A stretch of 64,000 nucleotides of DNA, taken from positions 21,201,648 to 21,265,647 of the forward strand of contig NC_092673.1 of NCBI RefSeq assembly GCF_964355755.1, read 5' to 3'. This document shows positions 1 through 62,031 of this stretch, piece after piece. Under the pieces are notes generated by a model that was given only the letters and a program-made list of their open reading frames with translations, made no database searches and was not told where the DNA came from. The stretch's first letter is position 1. Each line of letters starts with the position of its first letter. This stretch comes from Antedon mediterranea (lineage: Eukaryota > Animalia > Echinodermata). The translations under genes and the position numbers were made by a program.

Positions 1-350
1 TCAATTATCAATACAAAATGAATTTGGTTTTACATCAGAATATCATAGAAATTGGAGGGGGTTCGTTTTCATGGCCTATCTAAAATTTTCAACCCCCCTG
101 TGAAGGAATGAAATCCCTTTGTTTAAAGAAGTTCTGAATCGATATTCATCATTATTTTTTCATAATCGATCAGTTCTCAACACTATGTCAATTATCAATA
201 CAAAAAAAATTGGTTTTAAATCAGAATATCATAGAAAATGGAGAGGGGGAGGGGGGTAGGTACGTTTTCATGTCCTATCGAAAATTTACAACGCCCCTAA
301 ATAAGTTCTGAATTGGTATTCATCATTATTTTGTCATAATCAATTAGTTC
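1..350. repeat. Two diverged tandem copies of a ~188-bp unit (may continue upstream of the window)
   Basis: tcaattatcaatacaaaa...atcagaatatcatagaaa...gttttcatg.cctatc...agttctgaat...tattcatcattatttt begins at 1 and again at 189. Confidence 0.75.
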
Positions 351-925
351 AGTGGGTGTTTATTGACAGAAATCCAAATAGCCTAGTACTACTAGTATAC
401 TCTTACGGTGTTGTTCTATTGACAAAACTACATGGTGCAGTATTTAAGTTGAGTTATTGTACCACCAATTGTGTTTGAAATTATTATGAGTATATTCATT
501 ACTTTGAATGGTGCAAGAATTCTATTTAAAATGTCATCACTGAAGAGTACACTGTGCAGTACTTGATGGACCAGGCTGCCAGGCAAAACAGATCACTCCA
601 AAAATATCTGAATGATGATTGGGTATTGGTTCACTATAATCACAATCTTATTGGTTAAAAATAATAACAGAAGTTTAATAACAAAGTTAGAAATTATTTT
701 GCATACAAATGTTGATTGGTATCCTATTGGTGGATAGTAATGAATTTAGTGAAATCCTATTGGTTAATAGAAAGTATCCTGGAAGCAATAAAAGAACGAA
801 ACCGTAATTGTTAAAACTGTTTTGCTGTCTGATCAGCTGAATCTAGATACATTTTTTCAAGTTTAACATCAACAAGGTAGGCATGAGTACCTCTCATTAT
901 ATACTGTAGTAAATAAATTTCCAGC

Positions 926-1136
926 ATGATAATTCAATTGGCTAGGTTGATAATTTTTTTTTACATAATTAATTAGCTGTATGAATGTATACATTTCTCC
1001 TAGAACTTGTTGAAAAACGATCTTTTTGTAAGCATATTTCTGTAAGTAATATGTTCTTGTAAATAGGTCTTGTGACATACTGTGATTACATATAAATAAA
1101 AAAAAAAATTATCAACCTAGCCAATTGAATTATCAT
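926..1136. repeat. Perfect ~37-bp inverted repeat with ~137-bp spacer
   Basis: atgataattcaattggctaggttgataattttttttt (926-962) is the reverse complement of aaaaaaaaattatcaacctagccaattgaattatcat (1100-1136). Confidence 0.85.
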
Positions 1137-1716
1137 TACTGTTAAATTGCATTTCGAGAATAAATAAAGTTTTGAATTGAATTGAATACATCGTTTGGTT
1201 CATACTAGACTAGACACGTGTTGGTTTGTCAGTTGGTACTATTCTAGTAGTAGATAAAATACTTATAACATATAACCAGGGTGTTTACATGAATAAGCAT
1301 ATGCTTGATCATAACACATGAATAGAATGATGTATCGTTACACAAAATAATATAGAATTTGAGTATCCGCTCATTAAATCAATTTTATTATCATTTAAAC
1401 TATCAACCGGATAAACGTTTTACACATTATTGCAGACAATTTTAAGCAAAATTAATATATGCCTGTAAAAAAAATAATAAAATATATTTGGTTAAATTAA
1501 AATTGTGTCCATGAAGACAATAGGTTTCAATAAGTCTTGATACAAATTAATTACTTTGGTGAAATTTATTTACACAATTATTAAGCGGTTACTTTCTATT
1601 TAAAACTGGGCCTTAGTTACAGTGCCTATAAATTAAATACAAACATTTAAAAAACATTTTTTTTAAAAGTAAACAATTTTGCCCATCTCCAAAGTAAATG
1701 TTTAGGTTGTAAAACT

Positions 1717-3552
1717 ATGGAAGAAGAATATGACAAGGTATATAATTACCTGAGTAATTCTAGTTATCCAGAGGGATGTTCCAAAGAGGATAAACGGAGG
1801 ATCAGAAGAAAATGCCTGAATTTTGTTATACAAGGTATATAAACATTTACTACTAATTCACACCATCCCCAACTACAGGGAGGTTGCGAACAACTGTAAA
1901 AACTATTTCTCTTATAATACAGATTATAAATAATTCAAAAATAAATATCAATTTGTAGGCAAAAATCTAAGAGTAAACAAATACTCTTCAAAGGTAAATG
2001 ACTATACAGTTTTGTTTTGTTATTACAAATTAGTAGTATTATAGAACTTGTGTTATCAACGCTGACTCCATTCTTCATTGTTTTAAATACTTCTTTAATT
2101 CTTGTTTTGTTTTTCCTTTTTGTAATCTACAATAAAATAAATACAATTTGATATCAATATTAATCATTATTCATAATTATATTTTTATTAAATCTAGGAA
2201 AAATCCTTCACCGAAAAATAAAGGATGGAAGAGTTGTCAAATGCATAAAAACAAAAGAAGAAGCAAAAGAAGTCTTGAGACAGGTACACGACATACCAAC
2301 AGGGGGGCATCTAGGCCGAAACAAAACACAAAAGATGGTGTGTGCACGTTTTTACTGGCCAGGCCAAACACTAATGATAAATGAATGGGTAAGCTTGAAA
2401 TCTTATGAAGGTATACATTTTTTTAAGATTACAATTTCTCTTATGGTAACAGTCTTTTATTCAGTCTATTTACAATTGGAAAGTTTTGTTTAAATAAACA
2501 ATTATTTACATAAATAATGTTTAGCTGTCAGACATCATATGAAAGTTTGGAGATGTAAATTGCTAGAATATATAGAACAATGTATCTTAACAATAAAATA
2601 TTTTGTTTAACTTCTAGATAACAAACTGCTTGTCTTGCCAGAAAGGAGACAGCTTAAAGTCAATTTCAAGGGAACTCCAACCAATAGCAGTATGACTTTA
2701 TTGTTTATTTTTATTCTGATCTAAGAATGGTTTTTTCATTACAAAAAAAAGATCATCATCAAAACATTATTAATCAAACCAGGCAACTCACTCATACTGG
2801 TTGACCAAGTATTGATTTTTAATTGAGGGTGTATGTTTCCATTCATGTTTGTGCCAAAAAATGTTTTGCAGTTTAAAAAACGAATTTTGTTTTACAGTAT
2901 AATTGTGAATCTCAAAACTACATTACTTTTAAAGGTTTCAAAAATTCTGCCCTACCAGACCAACAGCATTATTTAAAATATATGTTGTAAATTAAATTTA
3001 ATTGTTTTGTTTCTGCAGGTAACTGGCCCTTTTGAGATGATGGGCATTGATTTAATGGGCCCATATAAAACATCAGACGGAGGAAAAAAGTACATATTTA
3101 CCGCTACTGATTACTACACCAAATGGTGCGAGGCCTTTGTCATTCGGCAAAAAACAAGTGAGGAGGTAGCAGAGTGCATGGTAAAAATTTACCACAGACA
3201 TGGTGCCGTTAAATCAATCATAAGCGACAACGGAAAAGAGTTTGTAAATAAGGTTAGTTCATTATGAGTTAAGTATATATTAAGCGTCTCTACAACAATA
3301 TATAATTCGTTGAATTTCAAATGGGAATAGAAAATAATGTAATTGTTAATGTTTTTCAAAACTGAAGGTTAACGAGAGACTTTGCAAAATATTGGGGGTA
3401 CAACATAGGAAAACAACAGCTTACCATCCACAATCAAATGGCTTGGATGAAAGTACCAATAAAAAAATAAAGAGGTATGTGCATCTTTACAATTATAATA
3501 TTCAATCAGCACGTTGAAACTAAAATAAATACCCGCCCTTGAGTGGTTGCCA

Positions 3553-3589
<37 letters not shown>

Positions 3590-4761
3590 GTTGGTTTTTA
3601 AAAGTATAAAACATTTCCAGTACAATATCGGTTATTTTAAAATTCAATTATACTCTCCCGAACACTTTTCTTTTACACCAAACCAGTAAAATTTGGCCAC
3701 TAGTCCCAACTCCAGTAACATCCAGAGAAAGTGGATAACAAGGACCCCATATTGGCCGCTATATTTGATTTAAGATGACGGATAATGTTCAAAGTTCACA
3801 TCAATATTCCTAGATGTGTAAGGATGTGTGGAAAAAAAAATCTTATAAACCTTCTCAATTGTATACAGATGGCAATAACAAATCCACTATTATCAAACAG
3901 TAAATATATGTATAGTCATTAATTTCCATAACATCATCCAAATGTTGGTTTTATATTTCAGTTGCCTGAGTAAATTAATGGATCAAAAAAAAGATGACTG
4001 GGAAAGGTACCTGGATTCAGTCGTTTTCGCCTTAAATATCAACTGGCACACGACTACAGAGTACAGTCCATTTTTCCTCCTGTACCACAGAAAACCTAAA
4101 ATACCAGCTGAGATAAGTGACGAAGATGAAGAGTGGGTAGGGACCAATGTATTTTTACATCCATTTTCTCTTCATCTGAGCAGAATGCCATTTGGCAGGA
4201 AACATCATCAATGTTTTGCATAAATGCCTTACTGACAACCATATTTCTAGACGAAATAAAATTATGGTTTCAATTATTATCGTTATTAACAATTGTGCAA
4301 TTTTTAATTTATTAGTGTTCTGATATTATGTATAAATTTGTATCTCTAAAAACAGTTATCAAACCTATCGTGCATAACAGAGGCAAATGAAGAAATGGTG
4401 AAAAACAGAGGCAATGCCATCAAAGAAACGACCAAAGCTGTTCTAAAAAATATAAAGAAAAAGCAGAAACAATACAAAACAAAATATGACAAAAAGTTAA
4501 AAAAACCAGCCATTGAAGTAGGTTCAAAAGTTTTAAAATTCAACCAAAGAAAACGAAATATTAAAGGAAATCGTTTGCAACCGAACTTCAGTGGTCCCTA
4601 TATTGTTGCATCCATTGAAGGTAAGACTGTCACACTAAAAGATGAAAATGGAAGTGTTTTGAAATCAAGAACAAGCCTTGATCACATCCGTATATGCAAT
4701 GAGAGTAACACAGAAAAAAGTATCTGTGAAGAGCCAAAAAACAATGATGATGAAGATCTAC
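1717..4761 (+). other. Integrase part of the Ginger-like gene (7 exons)
   Basis: MEEEYDKVYNYLSNSSYPEGCSKEDKRRIRRKC (GIN1/Ginger-type N-terminus); HDIPTGGHLG...FYWPG...CLSCQ (HHCC zinc finger); GIDLMGP, IISDNGKEF, YHPQSNGLDE (D,D,E triad); SPFFLLYHRKP; FSGPYIV (GPY/F motif). Confidence 0.93.
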
Positions 4762-7700
4762 GTAAGTACATAATGTAACATTTGAATTAAACTCATCTTT
4801 TAAATCTATAGTATAGGAATTGTTTGTGGTCATGAAGACAATGTAAATACATGTCTCTATAAATTAACATGCATATGTATAGTATTCAATATGTTTTTAT
4901 TTCAGCAAATCAAGGTTATAATAATTATATTTTTCTAGCAGAAGATGTTACAGAACCACACCATGAGCCAGGTAAGTTGTTACATTTATAAATACATTAT
5001 TCTTAACGTTCTTTTATGGCATTTATTTACATTTAATTATTTCAGCAAATCAAGTTTAAAATAATTATCTTTTTCTAGCAGATGATGTTACAGAACCACA
5101 CCATGAGCCAGGTAAGTTGTTATATTTATAAATACATTATTCTCAACGTTCTTTTATGGCATTTATTTACATTTAATTATTTTAGCAAATCAAGTTTATA
5201 CTAATTATCTTTTTTTAACAGATGATGTTACAGACCCACATCATGAGCCAGGTAAGTTGTTATATTTATAAATACATCATTCTCAACGTTCTTTTATGGC
5301 ATTTATTTACATTTAATTATTTCAGCAAATCAAGTTTATACTAATTATCTTTCTTTTTTAACAGATGATGTTAAAGAACCACGTCATGAGCCAGGTAAGT
5401 TGTTATATTTATAAATACATTATTCTTAATGTTGATTTATGGGATTTTCTTTTATTTAATTAGTTTAGCAAATCAAGTTTATACTAATTATCTTTTGTTA
5501 ACAGATGATGTTACAGAACCACATCATGAGCCAGGTAAGTTGTTATATTTATAAATACATTATTCTCAACGTTCTTTTATGGCATTTATTTACATTTAAT
5601 TATTTTAGCAAATCAAGTTTATACTAATTATCTTTTGTTAACAGATGATGTTACAGAACCACACCATGAGCCAGGTAAGTTGTTATATTTATAAATACAT
5701 TATTCTTAATGTTGTTTTATGGCATTTATTTACATTTAATTATTTCAGCAAATCAAGTTTATAATAATTATCTTTCTTTTTTAACAGATGATGTTACAGA
5801 ACCACATCATGAGCCAGGTAAGTTGTTATATTTATAAATACATTATTCTTAACGTTGATTTATGGGATTTTCTATTATTTAATTATTTCAGCAAATCAAG
5901 TTTATAATAATTATCTTTTGTTAACAGATGATGTTACAGACCCACACCATGAGCCAGGTAAGTTGTTATATTTATAAATACATTATTATTAATGTTGTTT
6001 TCTGGCATTTATTTACATTTAATTATTTCAGCAAATTAAGTTTATACTAATTATCTTTTGTTAACAGATGATGTTACAGAACCACGTCATGAGCCAGGTA
6101 AGTTGTTATATTTATAAATACATTATTCTTAACGTTGATTTATGGATTTTTTTAAATTTAATTATTTAAGCATATCAAGTTTATAATAATTATCTTTTGT
6201 TAACAGATGATGTTACAGAACCACATCATGAGCCAGGTAAGTTGTTATATTTATAAATACATTATTCTTAACGTTCTTTTATGGCATTTATTTACATTTA
6301 ATTATTTCAGCAAATCAAGTTTATAATAATTATCTTTTGTTAACAGATGATGTTACAGAACCACATCATGAGCCAGGTAAGTTGTTATATTTATAAATAC
6401 ATTATTCTTAATGTTGATTTATGGGATTTTCTTTTATTTAATTAGTTTAGCAAATCAAGTTTATACTAATTATCTTTTGTTAACAGATGATGTTACAGAA
6501 CCACATCATGAGCCAGGTAAGTTGTTATATTTATAAATACATTATTCTCAACGTTCTTTTATGGCATTTATTTACATTTAATTATTTTAGCAAATCAAGT
6601 TTATACTAATTATCTTTTGTTAACAGATGATGTTACAGAACCACATCATGAGCCAGGTAAGTTGTTATATTTATAAATACATTATTATTAATGTTGTTTT
6701 ATGGCATTTATTTATATTTAATTATTTCAGCAAATCAAGTTTATACTAATTATCTTTTGTTAACAGATGATGTTACAGACCCACACCATGAGCCAGGTAA
6801 GTTGTTATATTTATAAATACATTATTATTAATGTTGTTTTATGGCATTTATTTACATTTAATTATTTCAGCAAATCAAGTTTATAATAATTATCTTTTCT
6901 TTTTTAACAGATGATGTTACAGAACCACACCATGAGCCAGGTAAGTTGTTATATTTATAAATACATTATTCTTAACGTTGATTTATGGGATTTTCTATTA
7001 TTTAATTATTTCAGCAAATCAAGTTTATAATAATTATCTTTTGTTAACAGATGATGTTACAGAACCACATCATGAGCCAGGTAAGTTGTTATATTTATAA
7101 ATACATTATTATTAATGTTGTTTTCTGGCATTTATTTACATTTAATTATTTCAGCAAATTAAGTTTATACTAATTATCTTTTGTTAACAGATGATGTTAC
7201 AGAACCACGTCATGAGCCAGGTAAGTTGTTATATTTATAAATACATTATTCTTAACGTTGATTTATGGGATTTTTTTAAATTTAATTATTTAAGCATATC
7301 AAGTTTATAATAATTATCTTTTGTTAACAGATGATGTTACAGAACCACATCATGAGCCAGGTAAGTTGTTATATTTATAAATACATTATTCTTAACGTTC
7401 TTTTATGGAATTTATTTACATTTAATTATTTTAGCAAATCAAGTTTATAATAATTATCTTTTGTTAACAGATGATGTTACAGACCCACATCATGAGCCAG
7501 GTAAGTTGTTATATTTATAAATACATTATTATTAATGTTGTTTTATGGCATTTATTTATATTTAATTATTTTAGCAAATCAAGTTTATAATAATTATCTT
7601 TTGTTAACAGATGATGTTACAGACCCACATCATGAGCCAGGTAAGTTGTCGTATTCATAAATACATTATTATTAATGTTGTTTTCTGGCATTTATTTACA

Positions 7701-10700
7701 TTTAATTATTTCAGCAAATTAAGTTTATACTAATTATCTTTTGTTAACAGATGATGTTACAGAACCACGTCATGAGCCAGGTAAGTTGTTATATTTATAA
7801 ATACATTATTCTTAACGTTGATTTATGGGATTTGTTTTTATTTAATTATTTAAGCATATCAAGTTTATAATAATTATCTTTTGTTAACAGATGATGTTAC
7901 AGAACCACACCATGAGCCAGGTAAGTTGTTATATTCATAAATACATTATTATTAATTTTGTTTATTTACATTTAATTATTTTAGCAAATCAAGTTTATAA
8001 TAATTATCTTTATTTCTAGCAGATGATGTTACAGAACCACACCATGAGCCAGGTAAGTTGTTATATTCATAAATGTTTTATTTCATAATTGTAAGAGTGT
8101 CTAGAAAACACAGATCTGATTATTGTCCTATATATATAATATATATATATATATAAATCTGAAGGCAAATTACTGAAAATAATAACAATGCTATATATAT
8201 ACATATATAAAAAAGTCAAATCGACAAAAGAATCGTTTTATTATTAATAAGAGGGTAGTGCGGTCAATTTGCATAAAATGCTGGTACAGTATATTTCAGA
8301 TATTCATGATATAAGAACACTATTCAATGACTGATTGTGCATAATGCATAAACATTTTATTTATCTTTAAATCTCCCCGCAATAGCCTAAATATATAGGC
8401 TAACATAACTTTGTAGTTTGCATTACATTATGACAAATATTTTGATATTTTGATATTTTTAAAAAGGTAAACAGCAAAGACGACACACTGGATTTGCCAA
8501 GATTGAAAACGTCGGCTATAATTCGCCAATTACATTTTCTTCGTCGGAGTCTGAGGTTTCTCTAAATAATCTCGAAAAAGGAACAAAAAACATAAACAAT
8601 TTATTTAGTTCGGATTTGGACAACCAAGGTTTGTTATTAATTTTACAAAACCTACTTTATCCTTGTGTGACACACATACATTTTAATGTCGAAAAACTAA
8701 ATTTATTTTCATTTTCAAAATGTTTACTTATCGATCTGAAATTCTATTTTTATAGTACGAAAAAACAAAACAACCACTATAGTATCCATATCATCTGATT
8801 TTGATGACTTAATACCACAGGTTGATGCTACAGACTTTCCCTCCGATTCTTTCCATAAATGTGATATGATTTCCATATCTCCACTTTCCACAACCAACAA
8901 CGAAAAACAAACAGACACATAGAGGGCGACAATACAAAAAAAAAATTATTCAAATTTGTTTTCGGTATTTAGCATTTTTTACCTCCGCCAAGGAGGTATA
9001 TGTAATCGATCGCGTGTGTTTGTTAGTTTGTCTGTCTAGACAGTTTGTTTGTTTGTTAACAGGATTACTCAAAAAGTAATTACAAGGTCTTTACCAAAAT
9101 GAATGTACAGATAGATATGTGGTCAACGACCATTCCATTAAATTTTGGGACCATTTCGGACCACGGTCCCAATTCTGGACCACTTTTTAGTATACTTTTC
9201 AGACCTGCTAGTGTTAAAAGATAGGACAAAATTTTTCAAACGCCGGCGAGCAGTCTTAAAGTAACAAGTAAACTGTAATTGAATTTTCTCGAAAACTACT
9301 TGTCCAAAAAACTTCATTTTTGTACAAGAGGCAAGAGTTCTAATTTCTGATTTGTAATTTTAAAACATAATTTTATTTAATGTGCACATTTTTTGATGCG
9401 AGTAGTTTAAAAAAGCCTATTTCTTTTCAAATTCACTCGTTTGATTTTCGCGTTGCTGTTCTTAGTCAACTGAAGCTATTGTTAATTGTTGAAAGGCTTG
9501 TTACATAACCATTACACCAAACTCGTATACATATGCTTGTATTTAAATTAGCCTAAATCAGAACACACAAATATATACAGTATATATTTTTTTTTTACCG
9601 GAGAAATCTTATGTAGGAGAATTTTACAGTAGGCGGAGGTATGCACTCTCAGAGTGGCTTTCTAGTTTATTTTGTTTTTGGTTGTTTTCGGTTTGTGTTT
9701 GGTTGCTTTCGGTAATTAGACTGACCATTTTTGTTGTTTTCGGTTGTTTTTTTTATTGTTTTCGGTAATTAGACTGATCCTACATTATTATTAATGTTGT
9801 TTTCTGGCATTTATTTACATTTAATTATTTTAGCAAATTAATTTTATAATAATTATCTTTGTTTATTAACAGATGATGGTAAGTTGTTATATTCATAAAT
9901 ACAGTTGTTTTATGGCATTTATTTACATTTAGTTTATAATAATTATCTTTTGTTAACAGATGATGTTACAGAACCACATCATGAGCCAGGTAAGTTGTTA
10001 TATTTATAAAATACATTATTTTAAACCTTTTTTTATGTATGTTATGTATTGAATTTGGCATTAAATTAAAATCCCTTTTGAGATTTGTTGTTAATCACCA
10101 CATTGTTGAAACCAAAGAATTGTGTTATTAACCACATTGGTTTCTCTCATCTGTCTTGGATAAAAGTTTTACATTTTAGAATTTTATATGCACCTATTTA
10201 TATTATTTATTCAGTAGATGAAGGGGATGATGAAATGGAAAGTGATTGTAAGTAATCTGAAATGTATTCAACTAAAGGGCGGTCCTATCCTTTATATAAA
10301 AAAATTTAAAAAAGTGTATGACCGATTTTGTTAGCCCTGGTTTTTAGTTATGCAAAAAAAATAACTTCTTGATAAAATGTTAAAATATGTATAGTTTATG
10401 AATTGTAAGATAATATTGCATGGGATTTCGCTCTGTGCCCATTAGAAATTCTGCAGTGAATGTTTTCTATTTTGTCATTCTAATTTGGTTTTCTTTACTT
10501 TGTGTTTATATTATAATAACAGTATGTACTACATACATTATAACAATTACTTTTCATTTTTTAGTTGATGATGATGAACTTTTAAATCTATGTAAGTACA
10601 TAATTGTAAACGATAAAAGAATTGATTTAGTTTGCACAGCGTAGAAAAAGATACAACAAACAATACAGAAAGTATAAAGCATACAAGTTAGATAAATAAG

Positions 10701-13700
10701 TTCAAAATTTGTTCAAAACATGGATGGGAGCAGTGGACCATCCGACTCAAGCCATTTCAAATCAATGGGAGCACTTAATGCCGACCTACAGGGTATATAG
10801 GCTGTAAATATAAAGGTATATCAAATTGCCCCAGCTTAAGTTAAATCCCCATCTTTCCCCTTGCTTGAGCTATTGGGTAAGTGTTGTTTCTGTAGCAAAA
10901 TGTGAATGTAAAAATTAGTAAAATAGACAAATTTTTATTCTAGCTGAACTAGATATATCCTGGACAAAGGATGAAAGCTGTGAGTATACTAATTGTTTAT
11001 TATTAATACGTAATAAGAAATGTATTAATATGTAATAAGAATAATTTGTTTGGTAACCGATGAATAAATAACAATACGTAAAAAAAGGCTGCAAAAATAG
11101 TAATGAAATAAGACAACATACAGAATGTAACTACTGTATATATCATGAATAAAGTGTTTTGTAATACAGTAAACATTAAACAACTTACCGTAACAAATAT
11201 TAAAAACAAAGTTGTCTAGCATTCATATTATCATCTTATTATTATCATATAAATTATTCTGCAGCCAAACTAGATGTGTCCTGGATAAAACAAGAGACTT
11301 GTAAGTACATAATACAGGATTGGAGTACTGTTATGGAGGATTCTCACAAATTGCCTTGCTATTTACCTATATCTTATTAAATAATTATATTTATTCACTT
11401 ACCAAGATGGGTTAGAATTAATTTATATGATTCAATATTGGTAATCAATGAAATATAAAATATAATTACAGGAATTATTAAAAATTAAAATTAACTTTCA
11501 TTTATTATCAATAGCTATTCAGAATTGTTATTATACAAAGGATTTGGCTGTTAAAGGTAACTACTGTTTTAAAAACCAAAGTTAACAAACTGCATGAATG
11601 TTTAAAGTGATACATACAGTAATGAAGCTAACAATAACAAGCTATGAAATACACAAAACATTATAAGTGAATGGTACTGCAATATTTACTAATTACTGTG
11701 CTATAAAACAAGTTAAATTGCTAATTTAAAATCTATCAATGGCATAGAAATGTCTATATTCAATTATTAGTATCAAAATGAAGCTAACCTTCAGATATAA
11801 TTTAAATATTGTAAAGTAAATTTTTCTTATATTAAATTTAGCTCTTGATTCAGCTTGGAATTTAAGTCAATTGGACCAATGCCTAGTCAGTAAGGTATCC
11901 GGTATTCAGGTTTTTAAAAACGACCTATCCACCATTCGAGATTGGCTATCAGACAAGGTAAACATGTACTACTTAATTATTGGTTATCCGCTCTCTCTAA
12001 TTGTCAATTTTTTTTTTTTTTGCTATTATTTTTTCTTTCTGCCATCTTTTTTCTAAAACTTGCAATCATAACATATCGTAAATTTCTTAACATATTGACA
12101 TTTATGTTCTGCCTACATTTTCATAACAATTGTACACTTGTCCAAAGTGCAGGTTCAAATGTAATATGTATTTGTCCATGTACAGACATGTATTTTTCAC
12201 TATAATTTTTGTACAAAAACAAACCACTTAAAAATACTGTAACTTCACACAGTAATTAGTCAACAACAAAAATACACCAGAAATTAAAACCACCTTTTAA
12301 ATCTTTCAGGTAATTGACGTATTCCTAGAAATACTAGTTCTCCGAAACACGGTAAGTGGTGGTTCTGTGTTGTTTTAAAGGTTGAATTGAAATTTACTGA
12401 AGATGTGTTTATACTGTATTCCCAAGAAGCATAGATTATAATATTCATTAACAACCATACATATATTATTACACATTTATAGAATGAATGTTTAGTGTTT
12501 CTAAGTTTGATAGTTCTTTATAAAGTATTTAAAATTATTATGTTTCATTCATTGTTCCAGTAGTCTTAGTGTACTTAATTGTGAATAGCATATTATCTTT
12601 TACAGGAAAAAAAAATACTAAGGATAGAATCTGTCATTTTGACAGATATTCTTAATGGTTCATGCAAACCAAGTCACTTAAGGAAGGTATGTATCATGAC
12701 ACAAATAACACATTTATTGATAATAAAAAAAACTGCTTTATTGATAGTTTATAATTTATAAAGCACAAACAAATTTATAGGTCTTCCAACAATAAACAAT
12801 TTGTTCTTAAACTAACTATTCAATGAAAAATAGTTAATTAATAAACAGGGATAGATGCTGTTTGGGTTTCTTTATAAGCTATAGTTTGTGTTATCAACTT
12901 TCTATTGTGTAGTAATGCTAAAAAAAACACTACTACTGCACAGTACTAAAATCTCAAGTAACATTTTAAAAATAGAACTATGCTACAAAATTTAAAACTG
13001 TTTTTAGGTCATATTATGACTAACTTTTTTTTTATATATGGTAGGTTGATTTCTCCAATTTTGATACCATAATTGGTGGGTTACATGAACCAGGCCATTG
13101 GACTTTTATAGTAAGAAGGTTTTATTCAAACTTATTCATGATTGTTAATTACAAAAGTCTTTTGTTAAAGAATTTTATTTTCAGTCCTGTGAATGTTTTG
13201 ATAACAATTATTATACTATTTCAGATTGGATACCCAGAGCAGAATCTGCTATTATATCTAAATCCCCTAGGAGAGTTGCAGGAAAAATGCACTAGCATTA
13301 AAGCTAATTGGAAGTAAGTATTGATGTTACAATGTGGCTGGCAGGCTGTAGTATCATATAGAAATGATTGTAAGACAAAACAGTTTATGATAGGTAAATC
13401 ATTCTGTGAATTATTGAAAAAAACATCTAAATATGTACAACTGTATACTAATAATTATTATAACTTTGCCTAAAAATGTTTTGCTAAATTAACTAAATTT
13501 TATGATTTTCAATATTGATAGTATTTAAAAAATGGCACCTCCTCTTTTATTTTTTTTATTTCCATAAGTTGACATTACTTAGTTAACCTGTAAGATAATT
13601 TGTCTGTGTTCGATGTCATTTTTTGTTTCAGTCTGTTTATGCAAATTAATGAGTAGTTAATATGGCAATCAGCATGTTGGCAATAGTTCACTGTTGGTGC

Positions 13701-15224
13701 GGATATCAATAAATAAACAAATTATCAGACTTTCCAATCTATAAAATGTTGTATGTATTGTTTCGTTCACAGTAAATTCATGAAAATGAGATTTAACACC
13801 AATGCACCAGGAGGAAGTGCACAAAGGTGGGATGTGTCCACATCTGTGCATGCCAAACAGAGGGACAGTTCTTCTTGCGGCATTTTTGTACTCAAGGTAA
13901 CTAATATCTAAAAGTAATATTAAATAATTATAATAATAAGGAAGATGTAATTGTCATAATGGTAATAAAATATTGGAAAATAAAATAGTTATTAAACCTG
14001 TTTTTTCCTAAGTTTGCAGAGGCTTTTATAGAAAGTAGAAGTTTAAAATTTGCAACAGACTCTACATCTATATTACAGTACAGGCATGAAATTGGAGTAC
14101 AGATATTGATGGCATCTGGTAAATTATAGTTTTATATTCTTGATATTTCAAATTTTACTAAAAACAAAAAAGTAACAAAAATGTCAGACAAAATGCCTAC
14201 CTAATGTTTTTTGTATTTACAAAAAAATCCTAATTTTTGAATTTATCTTTCAGAAAATTTAACACCATATTGCCGGTTTTGTGGTAATGAGGAGGTACCA
14301 AGTGGTCTGTATGAAGAAGAGACAAGACCCAAACCCAAATCAACACAGTGGGTGCGTAATTATCACTTTTTGGAATTTAATGATAATAATGCTACTAATT
14401 TCAAATGTTTTCTTTTTCTGGTTTTGATATTAAAATATTTATAGCTATAATTGTGAAGAGTTATCACTTAAGTCATCTATCAATACCACATACTAATATG
14501 AGAGATAGAAGGGAAGGGGGAGCAAGAGGGTGGTAATTTTTAAATAAATACCCCTATTTCATCTGCCTGTCTTTTTACCCCTTGAAATGTACTACCTTTT
14601 AGTCTTTAAACCGTTATGTATTCATTTTAATGTTGTTATCAACTATTCAGGGTACAATGCACAAATCTGTTTGAGATATAAAATCAAATTTCATTTTTAT
14701 TTGTTAAAAATTAGGTTGCATGTGACACATGTCACAAATGGTACCACCAGGATTGTTTAGATGTGCCAAAAACAAACTTTTCATCAGAAAAAAAATTCAT
14801 TTGCAACAGCTGCAAAAATGAACAGCAGCAGCAACAACAACATAAAAGAAAGCAGCAACACCCACAACAAAAACAAAAAGAGCCGCAGCAGCATCAACCA
14901 CAACAACCACAGCAGCAACCATATGAACTTGTAAATATAACTAACAGAATTAAAAAATGCAAGGGATGCAGAAATTATTTCAAAAAACCAGTAACTCCAC
15001 CATATGACTTAGTGATACGGCACAAAGAAAAACTACATTTTTACAATCCAAAAACTCAAACACAACAACTGGGAAATTTACAAAATGTTTATTATCACCC
15101 CAAAATTAAATGTGTGCAAATTTGCCACCCACAATTCCAGGCCAAAGACCTAGTCCTGTCAGAAGGAACAAAATTAAAGTCTGCCCACAGACATCTCCTA
15201 AAACGCAGGGGATGGGTGCTATAA
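1717..15224 (+). CDS. Ginger1-type transposase/integrase fused to a microexon-encoded acidic His-rich repeat linker, Ulp1 (peptidase C48) protease, PHD finger, Q-rich tract and C-terminal Cys/His finger (~1129 aa, ~45 exons)
   Basis: Manual splicing gives one frame. Integrase exons: 1717-1834, 2198-2388, 2618-2689, 3019-3252, 3368-3474, 3962-4136, 4356-4761. Microexons: 23 x 30 nt (4942-8052), 9873-9878, 9960-9989, 10218-10247, 10565-10591, 10944-10979, 11265-11300. Later exons: 11842-11957, 12310-12351, 12606-12686, 13045-13110, 13225-13313, 13773-13896, 14013-14118, 14254-14351, 14715-15224. All introns are GT-AG with consistent phases and no internal stop. Introns plus integrase+Ulp1+PHD and no RT/gag match the known Ginger1 architecture. 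Confidence 0.85.
4895..8073 (+). repeat. Tandem array of 23 x ~140-bp units, each a ~110-nt intron plus a 30-nt coding microexon (DDVTEPHHEP)
   Basis: Microexons start at 4942, 5082, 5222, 5365, 5505, 5645, 5788, 5928, 6068, 6207, 6347, 6487, 6627, 6767, 6911, 7051, 7191, 7331, 7471, 7611, 7751, 7891, 8023. Typical unit reads ...ttttgttaacag|ATGATGTTACAGAACCACAYCATGAGCCAG|gtaagttg. Two more units follow an insertion (9873-9878, 6 nt; 9960-9989). Confidence 0.95.
8978..9667 (+). mobile_element. Helentron-associated (HINE/DINE-1-like) non-autonomous element, family A copy 1
   Basis: 5' ACCTCCGCC with adjacent palindrome (ccaaggaggt); GTTT/GTCT microsatellite; 3' subterminal inverse GGCGGAGGT followed by hairpin cactct-c-agagtg and ctagtt; T-rich insertion site. 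Two more copies occur in the window. Confidence 0.7.
11842..14118 (+). other. Ulp1/SENP-like cysteine protease domain of the Ginger-like gene (7 exons)
   Basis: Spliced translation: DLSTIRDWLSDKVIDVFL...LHEPGHWTFI...YLNPLG...HAKQRDSSSCGIFVLKFAE...YRHEIG. This has the C48 family WL.D.VI motif, catalytic His (HW), Asn in place of Asp, oxyanion Gln and catalytic Cys. Confidence 0.85.
14254..15224 (+). other. PHD finger, Q/P-rich tract and C-terminal CxxC...HxxC finger of the Ginger-like gene
   Basis: YCRFCG...QWVACDTCHKWYHQDCLD...FICNSC (C4HC3 PHD); QQQQQQHKRKQQHPQQ...; KKCKGC...NVYYHPKIKCV. Confidence 0.88.
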
Positions 15225-15831
15225 CTATATTTTGAAATAATTTCTGCATCCCTTGCATGTTTTTAAATGTATTTTTATTTGTATATGTATTTGTATATGT
15301 ATTTTTAAAGGGACAGCTGGCCTTTGGGTCATAGAGATATTTTTTCTTTAGCTGTCCCTTACCATTTTTGGTAAATAAATAAATGAAAATACCGGTAGAG
15401 TATCACTAAAAAAAAATTTTAAATAAAAAATGTATACATTTATATACTTATATACATAGTATATTCATATATACTTGGAGTCGATTTTATATTACTGTAC
15501 TAGTTTATTCCACAAATTAGCTACCTGAAAGGGAAAACTTTAAAAAAAATTTATTATTAGGTGTTTGATCTATAAAATTATAATTTAATATCATGTTCTT
15601 TGAATAAATTTCTTGAATAATTTGGCATTGTGGTATAGAGCAATCTTAGTATAATTTTGGTGTTGAGATTAAATCTAGTTTAGATATATGTTACTAAAGC
15701 TTCAGAACTTTTACTGATATATGTTATGTTGGGAAAGAAATATTTACTTTTTTATGTAACCCTCGAATAAACGCCCCGGGCCATTAGTGTTGATATTTAA
15801 ATCTGAATAATTTTTGTTTCTGTGAGATCCT

Positions 15832-16215
15832 ATGATCATATTGTATATTTTTATGGTGCCAGTTTCAAGTTTAAGGCTAGATCAAACACTTGCAACATGC
15901 AAGTGGTCAAATGTAACCACCGGTATTTGCACACTATGTAACAATGGTGATTTTGAAGACATTCAGCATTTTGTTTTGAACTGTAATGCATTTGACAAAA
16001 TTAGAAAAGAAGAACTAAGAAAACTAGAAAATGATTTGACCCTCTGTGATGATTATGACATGGACATTATTTGTAAACGCAAATGATGAAAACAAATTAA
16101 GTTTTATCTTAGGAGGAGAGGATGTCTTTCTTTCTAATGAATCATACAATTTGTTTGATAAATTTTGTAAAACATTAAGTTCTGCATGGGAGAAACGGTA
16201 TTGTTGCTTGTAAAT
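15832..16215 (+). mobile_element. Degenerate 3' fragment of a non-LTR retrotransposon ORF2 (post-RT CCHC zinc finger)
   Basis: ICTLCNNGDFEDIQHFVLNCNAFDKIR matches the CxxC-x7-H-x4-C finger at the end of LINE ORF2; the frame is disrupted downstream. Confidence 0.6.
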
Positions 16216-17634
16216 AGTTCTTAGTTTAGTTATTCATATTTTTTTCTTAAAATACAATTTGAAACAAGTAAAATTCATTCAAAATATTTACAATTTATTA
16301 ACAGGACATTGGTACCTAGGGCATGGAAAAAAACACTTTATTTTCCTTGCTTATCAATAGACTCTATTTTTTTTATTACTGTATTTCATTTTTCGCATTT
16401 AATATTTTTCGTTGTTATAATTATTTGATGCTCTGTGTTTTTTATGCCATTTTAATTTTGAAACAACTCATGTTTGCTGTTAATAGTACTAAGTAATCTT
16501 ATTCATCGTAATGTTAACTTGTATGTAGTGTAAATGTAAAAAGGTTAAATATTGTAATTTTTCTTTCTATGTCAGTCGTTTAAAGTTAACGCACCTTTAC
16601 TTAAAAGTGTGCCGCTGTTATAAAGCAAAGTTCAAAAAATTATTATTGTTATTATGGTTTGTTAACATTCAAAGTTTTAAACATTTTTGGGCAAATTTTT
16701 ATCATCTCATTTGTGATTATAGGATAGGATAATTGTTTGTTAACTGGCAGTAAACAAAAATAACATCAAATTGTAAATACAACCAGAAACAATAAATACA
16801 ATTGAATAATATCATGCTTCCTAATTTATTTTTTTAGTATATTTTTACTAAGACTAGAGTGGAAATGTTTTTGGTTTTGCCAGCGCAAGAAACGCTAGTA
16901 ATAGTAAGATATCATGGCCTACTACTACTGGGATCCCTACTACTACTAGCTAGGCAGCTACAGTAGCAGATGCCTGCTTTCTTTCTGCAAACCATCATCC
17001 TGATTTTTCACGCCAAATAAACCAGAGAGAGTCATCTCTTTATTTAAGAAAGGTTCTAGTGACAATCTTGGAAACTATACAAAACTAATTAATCTCTTAA
17101 AAGTTAAGTAGCCTTCAATGATCATCAATTATTCAGGAAGAAGTACAGCACAACATTTTTGCATTTTTATAGACTTTTAAAAAGCCTTTGACTTATAAAA
17201 TATTAATACTGTTAGTAAATTGCAATACTCAGACATTCCAACCTAAATGAATTAAAAAATCGGGAGAGTATACCGCCACCAACGTTAACACTGTGAAATG
17301 CTATTTGTGCGTGTAAAAACGCGTCAGGGTATATGCGCGTATGCGTAAATCATAATTAATAACTTTTATTGTAGACACATGCTCGTGTTTATAATATCCC
17401 TATACGAGCTTTGATTGCACATCATCACATCACATATGTGGCTGCGTGTCCACCCACAAGGGTTAGTTTTAGGTCGATTATTTTTTAATTTAGGCCTAGG
17501 TTATTTGCAGATGCAGTTATTTGTTTATGATTTCTCTGGTAAGATTATTGATCTTTTTATAATAAATCATAATTTAAAACAAGAACAGCAGCAACAAGTA
17601 GGCCTACCAGGCTGGCTAGGAAGGCCTACTACGG

Positions 17635-19616
17635 TGTCAGATGAAATCGGTCGCGTCTGAAATCGGTCGCGTTTGAAATCGGTCGCGATTAAATCAACTT
17701 CCGGTATTTTGTATGGCGCGCCGCTAGAGCTATACGTTTAATGATATCGGTCGCGTTTGAAATCGGTCGCGCTATTTTGCATGGGACGCACTAGATACAT
17801 TTTTAATGAAAACGCTAATTATTATGTTTTTAGTTTATTTTGAATATAGAATTTCTAATACTATTAACATTTCTTTTACCTTGATCGTTATTATTTTTTT
17901 AGTACAGTAAATATAAATATTTATTTCGTTATTTATAAATAATTTGTGTTTTCATTTTATCCTACAGGTGTCAATGAATAATTGTAATGTGTTCGTTTAG
18001 AAAATCGTTTTAAAAAGTTTTTAAAAAGATTAGCATGCCACTGTTTAAAGTTTTAAAAATGTTGAAATGATTTAATATTAAACAAGTAGACGCGCGCGCC
18101 TATTGCGTATCACAGTTAATTACGAAACTAGTTCTATACCTGCAAGTGGATACCAGCCACGAGGTTTATGCAATAAATATGATGTATGACGATGATTTTT
18201 ACGTTCGATATCCACCACTCTTACGTGAGCATGGTTTTAGGATAATACTAATAAAATAATATGCCGTTATAAATCAATCTACCGGGCCTATACAGTAGGA
18301 CTATGCTGTACAGGACAGGACCACAATGCAAAACAAGTTTATTTCTACTTGATTGTGTTTTATCCTGTATAAATATGTTGTTAAATAAATAAATACAATA
18401 GGCCTAGATGTGAGAATAATAATGGATGGATAATAAAGGTGGGCAAGATTCTCAAAGAGGTAATCTTGCACTGATATTTAAACATTTAGATTTACGAACG
18501 GTGTACGGATATGAGACACTTGGTAGGCCTACTTAATTATTTACATTAAGTGATCATTATAAATGAAGAAATAAAAGATATTCAAATTAAAAACTATAGT
18601 ATCGCCGACGTATATACGTATTATATACATCGTTTCAAAATGGAACTAGGTTTCACAAAAACACGTGCAGGCCTATTGATGTTTCAACCGTATGGTTATT
18701 AGTAATAGGCCTAGTAGTATACGTCATCTTTACATGGCCATGGACAACGATCGTACGTGTTTTGTCCATGATTTGACACACTAGTGCGTGTTTTTTTTAA
18801 AGGGAATCCCCGTCAGCAAAATAACGTGCAGTTAACGTCTGCACGATCATAGAAGGTGCATCCACGATATGGCATATTTCGGGGTTTATTTCAGTAACTC
18901 GCCTTTAAACGATCCGCATATAATAATCATTTTTTACTAGAAAATATTTTAGGCCTAAACATTAGTAATAAAAATATACACGTGATTTGTCTCAACAATA
19001 ATCATTATAGGCCTATACTTAATATTATCCTACATAACGTACGGACATAAATAAAATAGAAATTAAAATTAGGTGATCCAATAATAGTAAGTTTTTAACG
19101 ACATGGATATTATCTGCCACAAAAATGGATATGCTGGCTTACAATTATTGTTTTTAAATAAATTGTTCTCTTTTACGTAATGGTTTGCATAATAAAAGAC
19201 ACAGACGTATATTCTCTATATATATTAATTACAGTACATAATAAAATAGAGGTAAATTATTATATGCCTAATAAAATATTTAAACGTGTTTAGAAATGGC
19301 CATTTTGAAAAGCACGTAGTCCTTCTTCTCTGAGACCTGTGTAATAAAATAAAATGATTGATAATAAACATTTATTAACCAAAATAAAAAATATCCACAT
19401 AAATAATCTAGTTCCTAAAAAATATCAATTAAATCTAGACTATATAAACGAAGAAAATGATTATCCCGCTAGCATGCATCTCGCTCCATAAAAAATAGCG
19501 CGACCGATTTCAAACGCGACCGATTTCAAACGTATAGCTCTAGCGGCGCGCCATACAAAATACCGGAAGTTGATTTTATCGCGACCGATTTCAAACGCGA
19601 CCGATTTCATCGTAAA
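17635..19616. mobile_element. ~2-kb non-autonomous DNA transposon with ~150-bp TIRs built from GAAATCGGTCGCG subrepeats (possibly Ginger-type)
   Basis: 17635-17785 is the near-perfect reverse complement of ~19485-19616 and includes caacttccggtattttgtatggcgcgccgctagagctatacgttt. The left end reads ACGG|TGT; the right terminus is degenerate (cgtaaa|cccc). No internal ORF. Confidence 0.8.
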
Positions 19617-19619
19617 CCC

Positions 19620-20035
19620 CTACCACTAGCTAACTATAAAGGCCTAAATAGCTAGGGCTAGCTTGAGTAGTAGGCCTAGGCTAGCTAGCTACTACTACTA
19701 GGGTAGGCTAGCCTAGGCCTACTACTAGTATTAGCCTAGGCTAGCTACTAGTAGCTAGGCCTAGCTAGGTCGGAAAGGAGGCTTCTTATTTATATCAATT
19801 ATATTTAAAATACAGTATTAATAATAATAGGTCCAATAGGTCTAGGTAGGCTAGGCTAGGCTATAAATTTAGCCTTGTTTTCCTATAATGCCTAGCCTAG
19901 TAACAGGGAGCTAAAATGCTCTAAACTATTTCTTTCCCTGCCTAGGCATAGGCCTAGGCCTAGGCCTAGGCCTTGATAGTTACAATTATAAAAACTCAGC
20001 TACAGTATTGCGTAGGCTTCTCTAGCCTTAGATGT
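19620..20035. repeat. (TAGGCC/CTAG)n low-complexity palindromic tract upstream of SIMC1-like exon 1
   Basis: Dense taggcctaggcctag / gctagctag runs; similar tracts at 20700-20845, 47400-47850, 52140-52240, 52610-52640 and 53840-54070. Confidence 0.7.
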
Positions 20036-33694: not shown

Positions 33695-35816
33695 TAGGTT
33701 ACGAACAATCTCGGAGCTGATCTTCAAAAGCAGGCAATATCTCGTAAAGAATGGGTCTACGATAATATGTATGATGAGGGAATATATACCAAGAATATGC
33801 GTAAATTTACTACGGTAAATTACGGTAACAGAAACGGTAAATAAACATGTCATAATATTTTTAGAATCATAGATGTTAACACACAAAATATACAAACAAC
33901 AACGAGAGCACTAATTAAATATTATGGTATGCTTTGAAAAAATATCAATTTAAATCGATACAATAATCGCTCTGAACATAAGTGAAATGACGCATCATAT
34001 TTGTTTATCTACAAAACCAAGCAAACAGTATTAATTATTCAACAAGTCAAATATAATACTGATTGAACAAATTGGCTTGTAAAGAGAAAATACAAACTAA
34101 AGTAAAGTATAATATCCCTACATTTCCCCGACATTTTGTGTCTTTTATGCTAAGTTTAATTAGGCTACTACACTATCTTTGGGCTAGTCTATCTTTTAAC
34201 ATTAACAGGTCTGAAAATAATTGTAAAAAGTGGTCCAGAATTAGGATGATGGTCCAGATTGCCTCCGAAATTTAATGGAATGGTTCTTGACTTTTCAATA
34301 TTTTGGTAAAGATCTGGCAAAAAAAATACCGCGAACATTTCGTACGTAAAGTATTATTTATCATGTTTAATATGCAAGTAATTTGACCAATCACGACGCG
34401 GTAGATATGCAGAACTATGAGATGAAAAGTATTATAGCTTCCACGTTTCTCTATTTTTAATGACACGTATATCGATGTAGTGTTTATTTTGTATCTCAAT
34501 CTACATCCAACTGTTACTCAAAACAGCAGCTATTATTCTCATGATTTGCTGTTGGGGGGATATAGTATAGTAGGCCTATTATTAAAAATGGATGTAGGCT
34601 TTCTGAAAAACTACCCCATCGGAACAATTACCACACTCATAATACCTCCACCGGAACCACTAAATAATTTTAAATAACAGAGGGTGAACTAAATCGAAAA
34701 CGTAGAATTTTCAATGCCTTCAGATGTTGATATATACATTGTCTTTATTATAATAATATTATTATATTCATTACCGTGCTAATATTAATATTCAAGTCAT
34801 CTGTGTCCGAGTGTAGTGACGGCGCATATTATAACATGTTTATTATGAATAGAGCTTTTGTGTTATTTGTACTCAGTAACGCTCAACTGAATAAGAAATG
34901 ATCGCGCATTTATTAATAATTGGTAAACTTACAAGATACAAAATATAATTTTTTTTATCAGTTTTAAAATACAAATTAAAATTCGTTTTATTGATGCTAA
35001 ACAACAACACAGATGATAAATTATCATATCCTTCCTTAGAAGGGTCTACGCAAAAAAAGAACAAAGGAAATTCTCTGTTGCAATAACGTGCACCATCTAA
35101 GCAAAAACTTGTCATTCGAACAAGCAAACGAATTTATTGTGCACCAGGTGAGAACATGTTAATGACGGCCCAGAACAATGTACTTAATCTCATCGATGTA
35201 TATCTGCAAACTGTGGTCACTATAGTCTATAAATTCAAGCTAAGCCCTATCATAAACTTTGGAGAATTTAAGAAGAAATGTTACTGCATTTAGTGATAGC
35301 TTCATTTCATACCAATCAGATAGTTAGCCTGCTGTAGCTACTAACACAAATGAATATCCGGCTTCCCGCCACAATCTAAGAAAGTCAAGTTTAGAAATGC
35401 ATATTCGAAGGAAGTGAAATAGTCAACTCAGTGCCGGTTGTCAAGAACCGGTATTATACCGGTAATATACAGGAGCGAATTAGGTCGAAATTAGGTCATA
35501 TTTTGTAGACATTGATATGTCTAAACAATAAAATTACTGCAATTTAATCCATCCGCCAAGAGCTGCATGCCTCGTGGCTACTAACATAATTGAATATCCC
35601 GCCACAATTAGCAAGTGGTAGGCCTACTTTATAGGAATGCATTTGATTGTTGGAAGGATGGAGAGTCAAATAGTCAAAACCTAAAAATAATGTTCTTCAA
35701 AGCAATATGCCTACCGGTAGGCTTACCGTATTATTGCATCGGAAACTTGTACAGGGGCGAAAGTAAGAGGACAAAACGAAGTTTGAGGATTTGTCTGGCC
35801 GTGTTTGGAATGCTGA

Positions 35817-61905: not shown

Positions 61906-62031
61906 TAAGGAGGACAAGCGTAGTAACTAAGCTAGAGTAACGTTTTCTTTCGGATCGTATATTACTTTCTCAAAAAATAATTGGAAATACCACATTACCG
62001 GCCCTTTCTTTTCTCATTTAGATACATGATT

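What the first reader, a model, noticed from the sequence alone, without database searches (positions are those of the whole stretch)
1717..15224. Intact, ~45-exon Ginger1-like integrase-Ulp1-PHD-zinc-finger fusion: active transposon or domesticated gene?
Seen: a stop-free spliced frame with complete HHCC and DDE residues, protease His/Gln/Cys and a full PHD, despite several younger insertions in introns. Established: Ginger1 DNA transposons encode Gypsy-like integrases with introns and optional Ulp1/OTU/PHD domains, have TG(T) TIRs and 4-bp TSDs, and are related to the host gene GIN1. I could not find a matching TIR pair around the gene. There is a lone ACGG|TGT at 405-411 and a lone ...GTTAACA at 17290, and the left end may lie outside the window. 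Inference: this is either a large autonomous element or an independently domesticated integrase. The PHD could read chromatin and the protease could remove SUMO-dependent silencing at target sites.
Basis: partly seen in the sequence, partly recalled or inferred. Interest (0 to 1): 0.8.

Follow-up and report, generated by a model that had tools for sequence, protein, structure and literature searches.

The report
Stranded jumping gene with microexon array
This is an intact, apparently single-copy transposon enzyme gene of the known Ginger1 kind in an animal genome, with no recognisable end repeats and with 25 of its 45 exons forming a run of tiny repeated exons; it is likely a stranded jumping gene, possibly one that the host has begun to keep.

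Summary
A 45-exon model (all GT-AG, 3,390 nt) gives a stop-free 1,129-aa protein: YPYY-like motif, HHCC finger, D-D(35)-E core, GPY motif, acidic linker, Ulp1-like protease, complete PHD finger and an unassigned C-terminal Cys/His domain. It groups with stand-alone integrases, not with RT-bearing pol proteins. This domain set is textbook Ginger1 (like Ginger1-9_HM). The unusual part is the exon count: 25 exons are a tandem array of 140-bp exon+intron units, against 0-4 introns in described Ginger1. Public contigs show one copy at flank depth, two spliced integrase introns, and an in-frame splice that skips the whole protease. They also show a damaged second version that makes a more abundant spliced antisense RNA. 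The protease has Asn where SENP1 has the catalytic Asp. Signs of purifying selection are weak and no orthologue was found. Best reading: stranded, expressed Ginger1 copy without a shown host role (0.48); young domestication 0.35; still mobile 0.12. New variant of a known kind.

The parts
1717..1834 (+). Exon 1: start codon and YPYY-like motif region (aa 1-39)
   Evidence: aligns from residue 1 with stand-alone integrases
2198..2689 (+). Exons 2-3 (2198-2388, 2618-2689): HHCC zinc finger
   Evidence: Pfam Integrase_H2C2 1.2e-12; intron 2 spliced in runs X6 and X9
3019..4136 (+). Exons 4-6 (3019-3252, 3368-3474, 3962-4136): DDE core, D138-D197-E233
   Evidence: Pfam rve 2.6e-12; intron 4 spliced in X6; tree
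4356..4761 (+). Exon 7: integrase C-terminal part with GPY motif (aa 379-381)
   Evidence: homology to aa ~411 of stand-alone integrases
4897..8074 (+). Tandem array, 22.7 copies of a 140-bp unit, each a 30-nt phase 1-1 microexon (10-aa acidic/His repeat) plus intron; exons 8-30
   Evidence: collapsed-array depth about 15-fold above flank in X1 and X5
8075..9780 (.). Younger insertion(s) inside intron 30, splitting the array; includes an interspersed repeat at about 8975-9669
   Evidence: copies elsewhere in window at 82-96%; sequence
9873..9989 (+). Last array units: 6-nt exon 31 (9873-9878) and 30-nt exon 32 (9960-9989)
10218..11300 (+). Exons 33-36 (27-36 nt, all phase 1-1): older, diverged acidic microexons
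   Evidence: exons 35, 36 and the start of 37 share an S-x-LD-x-SW motif (sequence)
11842..14118 (+). Exons 37-43: Ulp1/C48-like protease, H817, N834, Q880, C886
   Evidence: skipped in the X6 splice form
14254..14813 (+). Exon 44 and start of exon 45: complete C4HC3 PHD finger
   Evidence: Pfam PHD 2.3e-7; best PDB hit CXXC1 PHD 5.8e-6
14814..15224 (+). Rest of exon 45: Gln-rich linker, unassigned C-terminal Cys/His domain (C1042, C1045, H1088, C1093), stop codon
   Evidence: no family found
528..4658 (-). Span of a spliced antisense RNA from a damaged second version (minus-strand introns 4364-4247 and 4010-2127)
   Evidence: joints CT..AC in X6 and X9; GT..AG on minus strand
15230..15266 (-). 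37-nt inverted copy of coding bases 14950-14985 just after the stop codon; would form an mRNA hairpin
   Evidence: 36 of 37 identical, E 3e-10

Best explanation
The locus is an intact, spliced Ginger1-type transposase gene with no terminal repeats found around it, likely a stranded copy of a cut-and-paste transposon that can no longer move itself and has no shown host role. Shown: frame, domains, catalytic residues, single-copy depth in run X1, two spliced introns, one protease-skipping splice, an antisense RNA. Inferred working: the HHCC/DDE/GPY module would cut and join Ginger ends supplied in trans. The PHD finger is predicted to bind methylated H3K4 and draw the enzyme to active promoters. 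The Ulp1-like domain would remove SUMO or a related tag near the target, if Asn can stand in for Asp. The linker between integrase and protease likely grows and shrinks by unequal crossing-over of 140-bp exon+intron units; because every linker exon is phase 1-1 and a multiple of three, copy number or skipping cannot break the frame. The same phase match lets splicing drop the protease and keep the PHD. The antisense RNA from the damaged version would tend to silence the gene.
For: Full Ginger1 domain set with an intact D-D(35)-E triad, as in mobile elements (PMC2836005 Table 1), whereas the domesticated Imagin lost DDE and GIN2's is doubtful. In a tree of 112 rows the core sits in a 20-row clade (SH-aLRT 99) with none of the 34 RT-bearing rows and 4 Ulp1-bearing rows. 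No TIR or LTR: best inverted and direct scores 35, against 27-40 and 28-39 in 20 controls each; no YNACA+TSD between 3233 and 48768. X1: one unbranched 4,476-nt contig over 9981-14474 at depth 18.8, flank 20.3 and 19.4. A damaged second version is seen in 3 of 4 runs laid: foreign sequence joined inside exon 7 at 4658 in X5, X6, X9; a stop in the Gln-rich linker and two changes in the last domain in X6. No close orthologue: exon 4 found 1 hit of 12 candidates (54%, Mya); the last domain found 0 of 43. Bao et al. describe a single autonomous Ginger1 copy in lancelet and TIR-less Ginger1 genes in Ciona.
Against: Hints of purifying selection at this locus: 5 of 9 listed exonic differences are synonymous (p 0.02 at equal rates, 0.08-0.14 with transition bias); 4 differences in 399 coding nt against 37 in 1,398 non-coding nt (p 0.057); 3 of 3 listed coding indels keep the frame length against 3 of 22 non-coding (two lie in Gln repeats); chance of no disabling hit under neutrality about 0.01-0.16. 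Run X5, filed under another organism label, also holds both flanks. The left end may lie outside the window. The orthologue searches are weak evidence. Depth from contigs is not a copy number.
Confidence: 0.48

Rival explanations
1. A young, lineage-specific domestication: the host keeps the gene, and likely uses it as a chromatin-binding protein with an optional SUMO-protease module chosen by splicing; the damaged version is a truncated duplicate.
For: Single-copy depth, no TIR pair, both flanks also present in the second organism label, transcription and alternative splicing; weak selection signals; several rounds of exon duplication of different age kept in frame; Ginger1 was domesticated repeatedly (GIN1, GIN2, Ciona genes, Imagin).
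Against: No orthologue found; all transposition machinery intact; the damaged version dominates the RNA (depth 192 against 21-34 in X6) and may be a null allele; selection statistics rest on truncated tables (80 of 312 substitution rows shown) and the locus was picked because it is intact.
Confidence: 0.35
2. A still-mobile autonomous Ginger1 element of more than 15 kb whose left end lies upstream of the window and whose right end is atypical.
For: Intact catalytic residues; Ginger1 families are low-copy; positions 1-527 differ between versions, and the other version carries a splice-donor-like sequence left of 528, so a 5' exon and the true left end may lie outside the window; a second version exists.
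Against: No canonical right end with TSD in 33 kb downstream; unbranched single-depth contigs in X1 and no element-edge loose end among those shown (24 of 118 rows shown); decayed LINE remnants next to the gene are shared with run X5; described elements are 2.6-7 kb with 0-4 introns.
Confidence: 0.12
3. Two unrelated pieces (an LTR-retrotransposon integrase remnant and a separate protease/PHD gene) joined only by the reader's splicing of a satellite repeat.
Against: Homologues carry integrase, Ulp1 and PHD in one chain in this order (P0001, P0016); RT-bearing pol proteins hit only the integrase exons; the tree separates it from them; an array exon is spliced to the PHD exon in X6; all phases fit.
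Confidence: 0.05

Closest known systems
Ginger1 DNA transposons, especially Ginger1-9_HM (Ulp1+PHD) (Bao, Kapitonov, Jurka 2010, PMC2836005; parts 1-3 of 5 of the text read)
   Same: Stand-alone Gypsy-like integrase with YPYY, H2C2, DDE and GPY/F, followed by Ulp1 and PHD; spliceosomal introns; no RT.
   Different: 44 introns against 0-4; coding span 13.5 kb against elements of 2.6-7 kb; 1,129 aa against about 500-800; tandem microexon linker; extra C-terminal Cys/His domain; no 40-270-bp TIR pair or CCGG/ACGG TSD pair found; Asn at the protease Asp.
GIN1 and GIN2 (vertebrates) and the Ciona Ginger1-derived genes (PMC2836005; PMC3424704, passages read)
   Same: Single-copy, intron-containing, TIR-less Ginger1-derived integrase genes.
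   Different: They are conserved at orthologous sites over hundreds of millions of years; no such conservation is shown here. The passages read give them no Ulp1/PHD. Shared intron positions could not be tested.
Imagin of malacostracan crustaceans (PMC12863088; abstract and passages read)
   Same: Single-copy multi-exon Ginger1-derived gene without inverted repeats; keeps YPYY and H2C2.
   Different: Imagin lost the DDE triad, has 3 exons and dN/dS 0.05-0.13 across orders; here DDE is intact and selection is only hinted.
Mya arenaria 'POL4-like' protein P0001 and unnamed P0016
   Same: Nearest rows in the tree; integrase+Ulp1+PHD in the same order.
   Different: Only 47% identity in the core, short linker, Asp in the protease, no C-terminal extra domain.
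Ulp1-bearing Mutator elements (Kaonashi/VANC; PMC13317346, passages read)
   Same: A transposon carries a Ulp1 domain whose function is still unknown.
   Different: Unrelated transposase; plants.

Membership tests
Ginger1 transposon | Gypsy-like integrase at the N-terminus of a stand-alone ORF, no RT/RNase H | tested here: met
   16 RT-bearing pol proteins hit only 2000-4000
Ginger1 transposon | YPYY motif upstream of the zinc finger | tested here: inconclusive
   Y11...Y17-P18...F36 pattern by eye and full-length alignment to homologues from residue 1; the paper's alignment figure and FASTA supplements could not be read
Ginger1 transposon | H2C2 finger, DDE core, GPY/F motif | tested here: met
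Ginger1 transposon | C-terminal Ulp1 or OTU domain, optional PHD | tested here: met
Ginger1 transposon | Phylogenetic grouping with named Ginger1 transposases | tested here: inconclusive
   groups with unnamed stand-alone, partly Ulp1-bearing integrases (quick search, midpoint root); no named Ginger1, Ginger2 or GIN reference was in the tree
Ginger1 transposon | 40-270-bp TIRs starting TGTNR | tested here: not met
   only 1,716 nt of left flank are in the window
Ginger1 transposon | 4-bp CCGG/CCGT/ACGG target-site duplication | tested here: not met
   one ACGG|TGTTG at 405-413, no right partner
Ginger1 transposon | Dispersed copies at different sites | tested here: inconclusive
   no genome held; X1 single-copy depth; a damaged second version, allele or copy, in X5, X6, X9
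Domesticated Ginger1 gene (GIN1/GIN2/Imagin type) | Single copy without TIRs, transcribed | tested here: met
   (contig-level evidence)
Domesticated Ginger1 gene (GIN1/GIN2/Imagin type) | Orthologues at a syntenic site in distant relatives | not testable with these tools
   no eukaryote genomes searchable; protein searches found no close relative
Domesticated Ginger1 gene (GIN1/GIN2/Imagin type) | Purifying selection (dN/dS well under 1) | tested here: inconclusive
Gypsy LTR retrotransposon | Integrase at the end of a pol with protease, RT, RNase H; LTRs; no introns | tested here: not met
Ulp1/SENP protease (C48) | His-Asp-Cys triad with oxyanion Gln | tested here: not met
   His, Gln, Cys present; Asn834 at the Asp position. 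This lowers 'canonical SENP', not 'works like one'
Ulp1/SENP protease (C48) | SUMO-cleaving activity | not testable with these tools
   needs an assay

The most novel reading that the evidence does not exclude
A Ginger1 transposase caught early in domestication with its whole toolkit intact: a catalytically complete integrase joined to an H3K4me reader and a switchable SUMO-type protease through a linker built from about 25 tandem microexons, so that splicing and array length tune the enzyme, while a broken sister copy regulates it by antisense RNA.
Probability: 0.25. Interest if true: 0.72.

Novelty: new variant of a known kind. Interest (0 to 1): 0.42.

Why it matters
The domain combination is known. 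The job of transposon-borne Ulp1 domains is still unknown (PMC13317346 passage; PMC2836005 offers only a hypothesis). This locus gives a natural pair of splice forms, with and without the protease, in a catalytically intact, expressed gene, which would make that question testable. It also shows a transposase gene going from a handful of introns to 44 by tandem exon duplication. I found no such case in print: search 'tandem exon duplication / transposase / microexon' (15 of 41 listed, none on this) and the Ginger1 search (11 papers). If orthologues under selection turn up, it would be a further independent Ginger1 domestication and, among those read here, the only one that keeps the Ulp1 and PHD cargo.

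Tried and rejected
Whole-genome copy count: no genome held. TIR/LTR search by exact seeds, BLAST and local alignment with controls: nothing above background. Candidate left ends at 409 and 532: best 40-nt match to the reverse strand downstream only 23 and 21 of 40. A near-palindromic likeness between 391-410 and 15385-15407 was seen by eye and not accepted as a terminus. C-terminal Cys/His domain: no Pfam hit at E 0.1, 0 of 43 candidates, no PDB hit, two Atlas searches with low recognition scores (1744, 1960) and only weak Pol_BBD look-alikes, rejected; single-sequence AlphaFold pLDDT 45.5, so no fold search was run. A likeness to PARP-type zinc fingers is recalled, not supported by any search. 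SIMC1 identity of the neighbour: no support. Rfam 1-20500: 0 matches. Exon 4 against PDB: 0 hits. Alignment A1 uninformative. No run is on record as RNA; RNA content of X6 and X9 is inferred from spliced joints. Lack of spliced protease introns in contigs is not counted as evidence of absence. A paper on CE-clan proteases gave no passage on Asn triads. A literature search for Ginger1 in echinoderms returned nothing on topic among 10 listed; the animal group is not established by any search. Earlier scan notes: none for this genome, none bearing. The careful tree search did not finish; the quick tree is reported.
Full report
Observation. I rebuilt the gene by coordinates. Exons: 1717-1834, 2198-2388, 2618-2689, 3019-3252, 3368-3474, 3962-4136, 4356-4761; 23 exons of 30 nt from 4942 to 8052; 9873-9878; 9960-9989; 10218-10247, 10565-10591, 10944-10979, 11265-11300, 11842-11957, 12310-12351, 12606-12686, 13045-13110, 13225-13313, 13773-13896, 14013-14118, 14254-14351, 14715-15224. 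All 44 introns are GT-AG, and the 3,390 nt give 1,129 aa with one terminal stop. The exon 6/7 boundary has alternatives and was chosen for phase. Pfam on 13 single exons confirms the H2C2 finger, integrase core and PHD. The triad is D138, D197, E233 with D(35)E spacing. The joined protease region matches Ulp1-bearing homologues (E 4e-13 to 7e-4, 14 of 151 proteins), and a profile of 12 homologous segments scores it at E 3e-35 (the segments were picked with the model, so this figure is partly circular).

What it is. The order YPYY-like, HHCC, DDE, GPY, Ulp1, PHD is the Ginger1 architecture of Bao et al. 2010 (PMC2836005, parts 1-3 of 5 read), met in full by Ginger1-9_HM. Database homologues carry the same domains in one chain (P0001, P0016). 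In a tree of the finger plus core (111 of 151 searched proteins passed an 80% coverage filter, plus the window, quick search) the window lies in a 20-row clade with support 99. That clade holds 4 Ulp1-bearing rows and none of the 34 rows labelled RT-bearing by motif. Sixteen RT-bearing pol proteins hit only the integrase exons of the window. An LTR retrotransposon is therefore excluded. No named Ginger1, Ginger2 or GIN sequence was in the tree; the paper's FASTA supplements could not be read and bear on exact placement and on shared intron positions.

Ends. No inverted or direct repeat joins the 1,716-nt left flank to the 5-kb right flank above control scores. The TSD+TGTNR motif at 405-413 is one of 6 in the window, and no YNACA+TSD right end lies between 3233 and 48768. 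The GTTAACA at 17290 ends a ~42-bp motif that recurs in other contexts in the runs (tables 4, 7, 8). Between the gene and it lie non-LTR remnants (zf-RVT E 8e-4 at 15826-16083; a broken RT motif near 17150-17190). The left end could still be outside the window.

Run X1 covers 9981-14474 with one unbranched contig at depth 18.8, the integrase exons at 12-19 and the downstream flank at 19-20, as a single-copy locus would. Run X5, under another organism label, holds the gene at 1.3-1.9% difference and both flanks, though 15292-15815 is poorly covered and no contig bridges the whole. X6 and X9 behave as RNA: intron 2 is spliced out in both and intron 4 in X6 (15 of 23 joints shown). Among the 10 joints, one GT-AG joint (depth 34, 26 nt on the short side) links an array exon directly to exon 44. 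It skips exons 33-43, keeps the frame (878 aa) and drops the protease. No protease intron was seen spliced. Which version of the gene makes this form is not known.

A damaged second version. X5, X6 and X9 carry foreign sequence joined at 4658 inside exon 7 and a 12-nt deletion at 4555; X6 and X9 also have a different left neighbour at 528. In X6 and X9 this version gives the deepest contig (192 and 98, against 21-26 and 3 for sense joints). Its two joints are GT-AG introns of the minus strand, so it is a spliced antisense RNA over exons 1, 6 and 7. X6 also holds an exon-45 variant with a stop in the Gln-rich linker and changes Y1087H and P1089T. X1 shows neither the deletion nor, among the rows shown, the junction. 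Allele or second locus cannot be told from contigs.

The microexon array. 25 of 45 exons come from a 140-bp unit (22.7 copies, 92% alike). In 22 aligned units, 5 of 30 exon columns vary against 39 of 114 intron columns, indels touch 0 exon and 14 intron columns, and mean pairwise difference is 4.4% against 7.5%. Units 5 and 12 are identical and 7/15 and 9/17 differ by one base, which points to block duplication by unequal crossing-over (inference). Exons 33-36 look like older rounds of the same process. Collapsed depth at 9790-10051 is about 15 times the flank in X1 and X5, so the array is not an assembly artefact, though its exact length may be. Repeats in this linker also occur in homologues P0062 and P0171 (2 of 14 checked); their exon structure is unknown. 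Described Ginger1 elements have 0-4 introns.

Selection. Of 80 substitution rows shown (of 312), 9 fall in exons: 5 synonymous, 4 not (p 0.02-0.14). Coding 4 of 399 against non-coding 37 of 1,398 differences in one X6 contig (p 0.057). A rough neutral model gives a 1-16% chance of no disabling hit since the split from the X5 version (the indel ratio is assumed). The locus was picked for being intact. This is a hint, not a demonstration. Against a host role: no close orthologue (weak searches), no sign of an annotated protein for this gene although a neighbour's protein is in NCBI, and a common damaged version.

Mechanism. Shown: an intact integrase gene, expressed, with at least one protease-less splice form and an antisense RNA. 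Inferred: the integrase would act on Ginger ends in trans. The PHD is closest to CXXC1 among solved structures, with BPTF, UHRF1 and PHF21A also among the hits. It keeps Tyr933, Trp960 and Trp969 at the places I recall as the methyl-lysine cage (positions recalled; the cage concept and the RAG2 precedent are from PMC2794343 passages). It is predicted to read H3K4me2/3, which would suit an element that prefers CCGG sites, but H3K4me0 readers are among the hits too. The protease has His817, Gln880, Cys886 but Asn834 where SENP1 has Asp (Asp in 10, Asn in 1, Gly in 1 of 12 homologues), so activity and substrate are open. The role of transposon Ulp1 domains is unknown in print. The last domain has four candidate zinc ligands but no family.

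Verdict. A real, well-formed Ginger1-type gene. It works like a Ginger1 transposase and fails the terminal-repeat tests for a mobile member. Stranded copy 0.48, young domestication 0.35, mobile 0.12, two pieces 0.05. New in its exon array, extra domain and protease-skipping form, not in its domain set. Interest 0.42. Papers seen: PMC2836005 (3 of 5 parts, supplement list only), PMC12863088, PMC6839031, PMC3424704, PMC2794343, PMC13317346, PMC6431247, PMC4961225 (passages); Marin 2010 only as cited in these.

Noticed in passing
window 528-4658, minus strand: Abundant spliced antisense RNA from a damaged version of the gene, about 8-30 times the depth of sense joints in runs X6 and X9.
   Followed up: partly
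window 14950-14985 and 15230-15266: A 37-nt inverted copy of coding sequence directly after the stop codon, followed by a second 10-bp stem at 15308-15360 and a poly(A)-like signal; would fold the 3' end of the mRNA.
   Followed up: no
window 1-330: End of a very high-copy repeat with a period of about 178 bp (depth over 100 times the locus in X5); positions 1-527 are replaced by other sequence in the second version.
   Followed up: partly
window 17630-19625: A 2-kb element with long inverted ends (17658-17739 and 19528-19609, 99% complementary) and 16-bp subterminal repeats; looks like a non-autonomous DNA transposon unrelated to the gene.
   Followed up: no
window 8975-9669, also about 29600-30360, 34189-34291, 62031-63209: Interspersed repeat family with a short terminal inverted motif and a microsatellite; resembles DINE-1/Helentron-type elements (recalled, untested); the copy at 62654-63209 carries its own 61-bp tandem array.
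   Followed up: no
window 15826-17230: Non-LTR retrotransposon remnants (zf-RVT hit, broken RT motif), also present in run X5.
   Followed up: partly
   Followed up: partly
window 37000-59467: By eye from ORF translations (names recalled): a tetraspanin-like gene (minus), a creatine/arginine kinase-like gene (minus, 48000-51934), an arsenite methyltransferase-like gene and a single-exon cysteamine dioxygenase-like gene, the last one present in NCBI/UniRef.
   Followed up: no
proteins P0036 and P0035: Integrases of the same clade are annotated as fusions: to phosphopantothenoylcysteine decarboxylase in a toad and to a long unrelated C-terminus with many isoforms in a mormyrid fish; possible further exaptations or annotation merges.
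   Followed up: no
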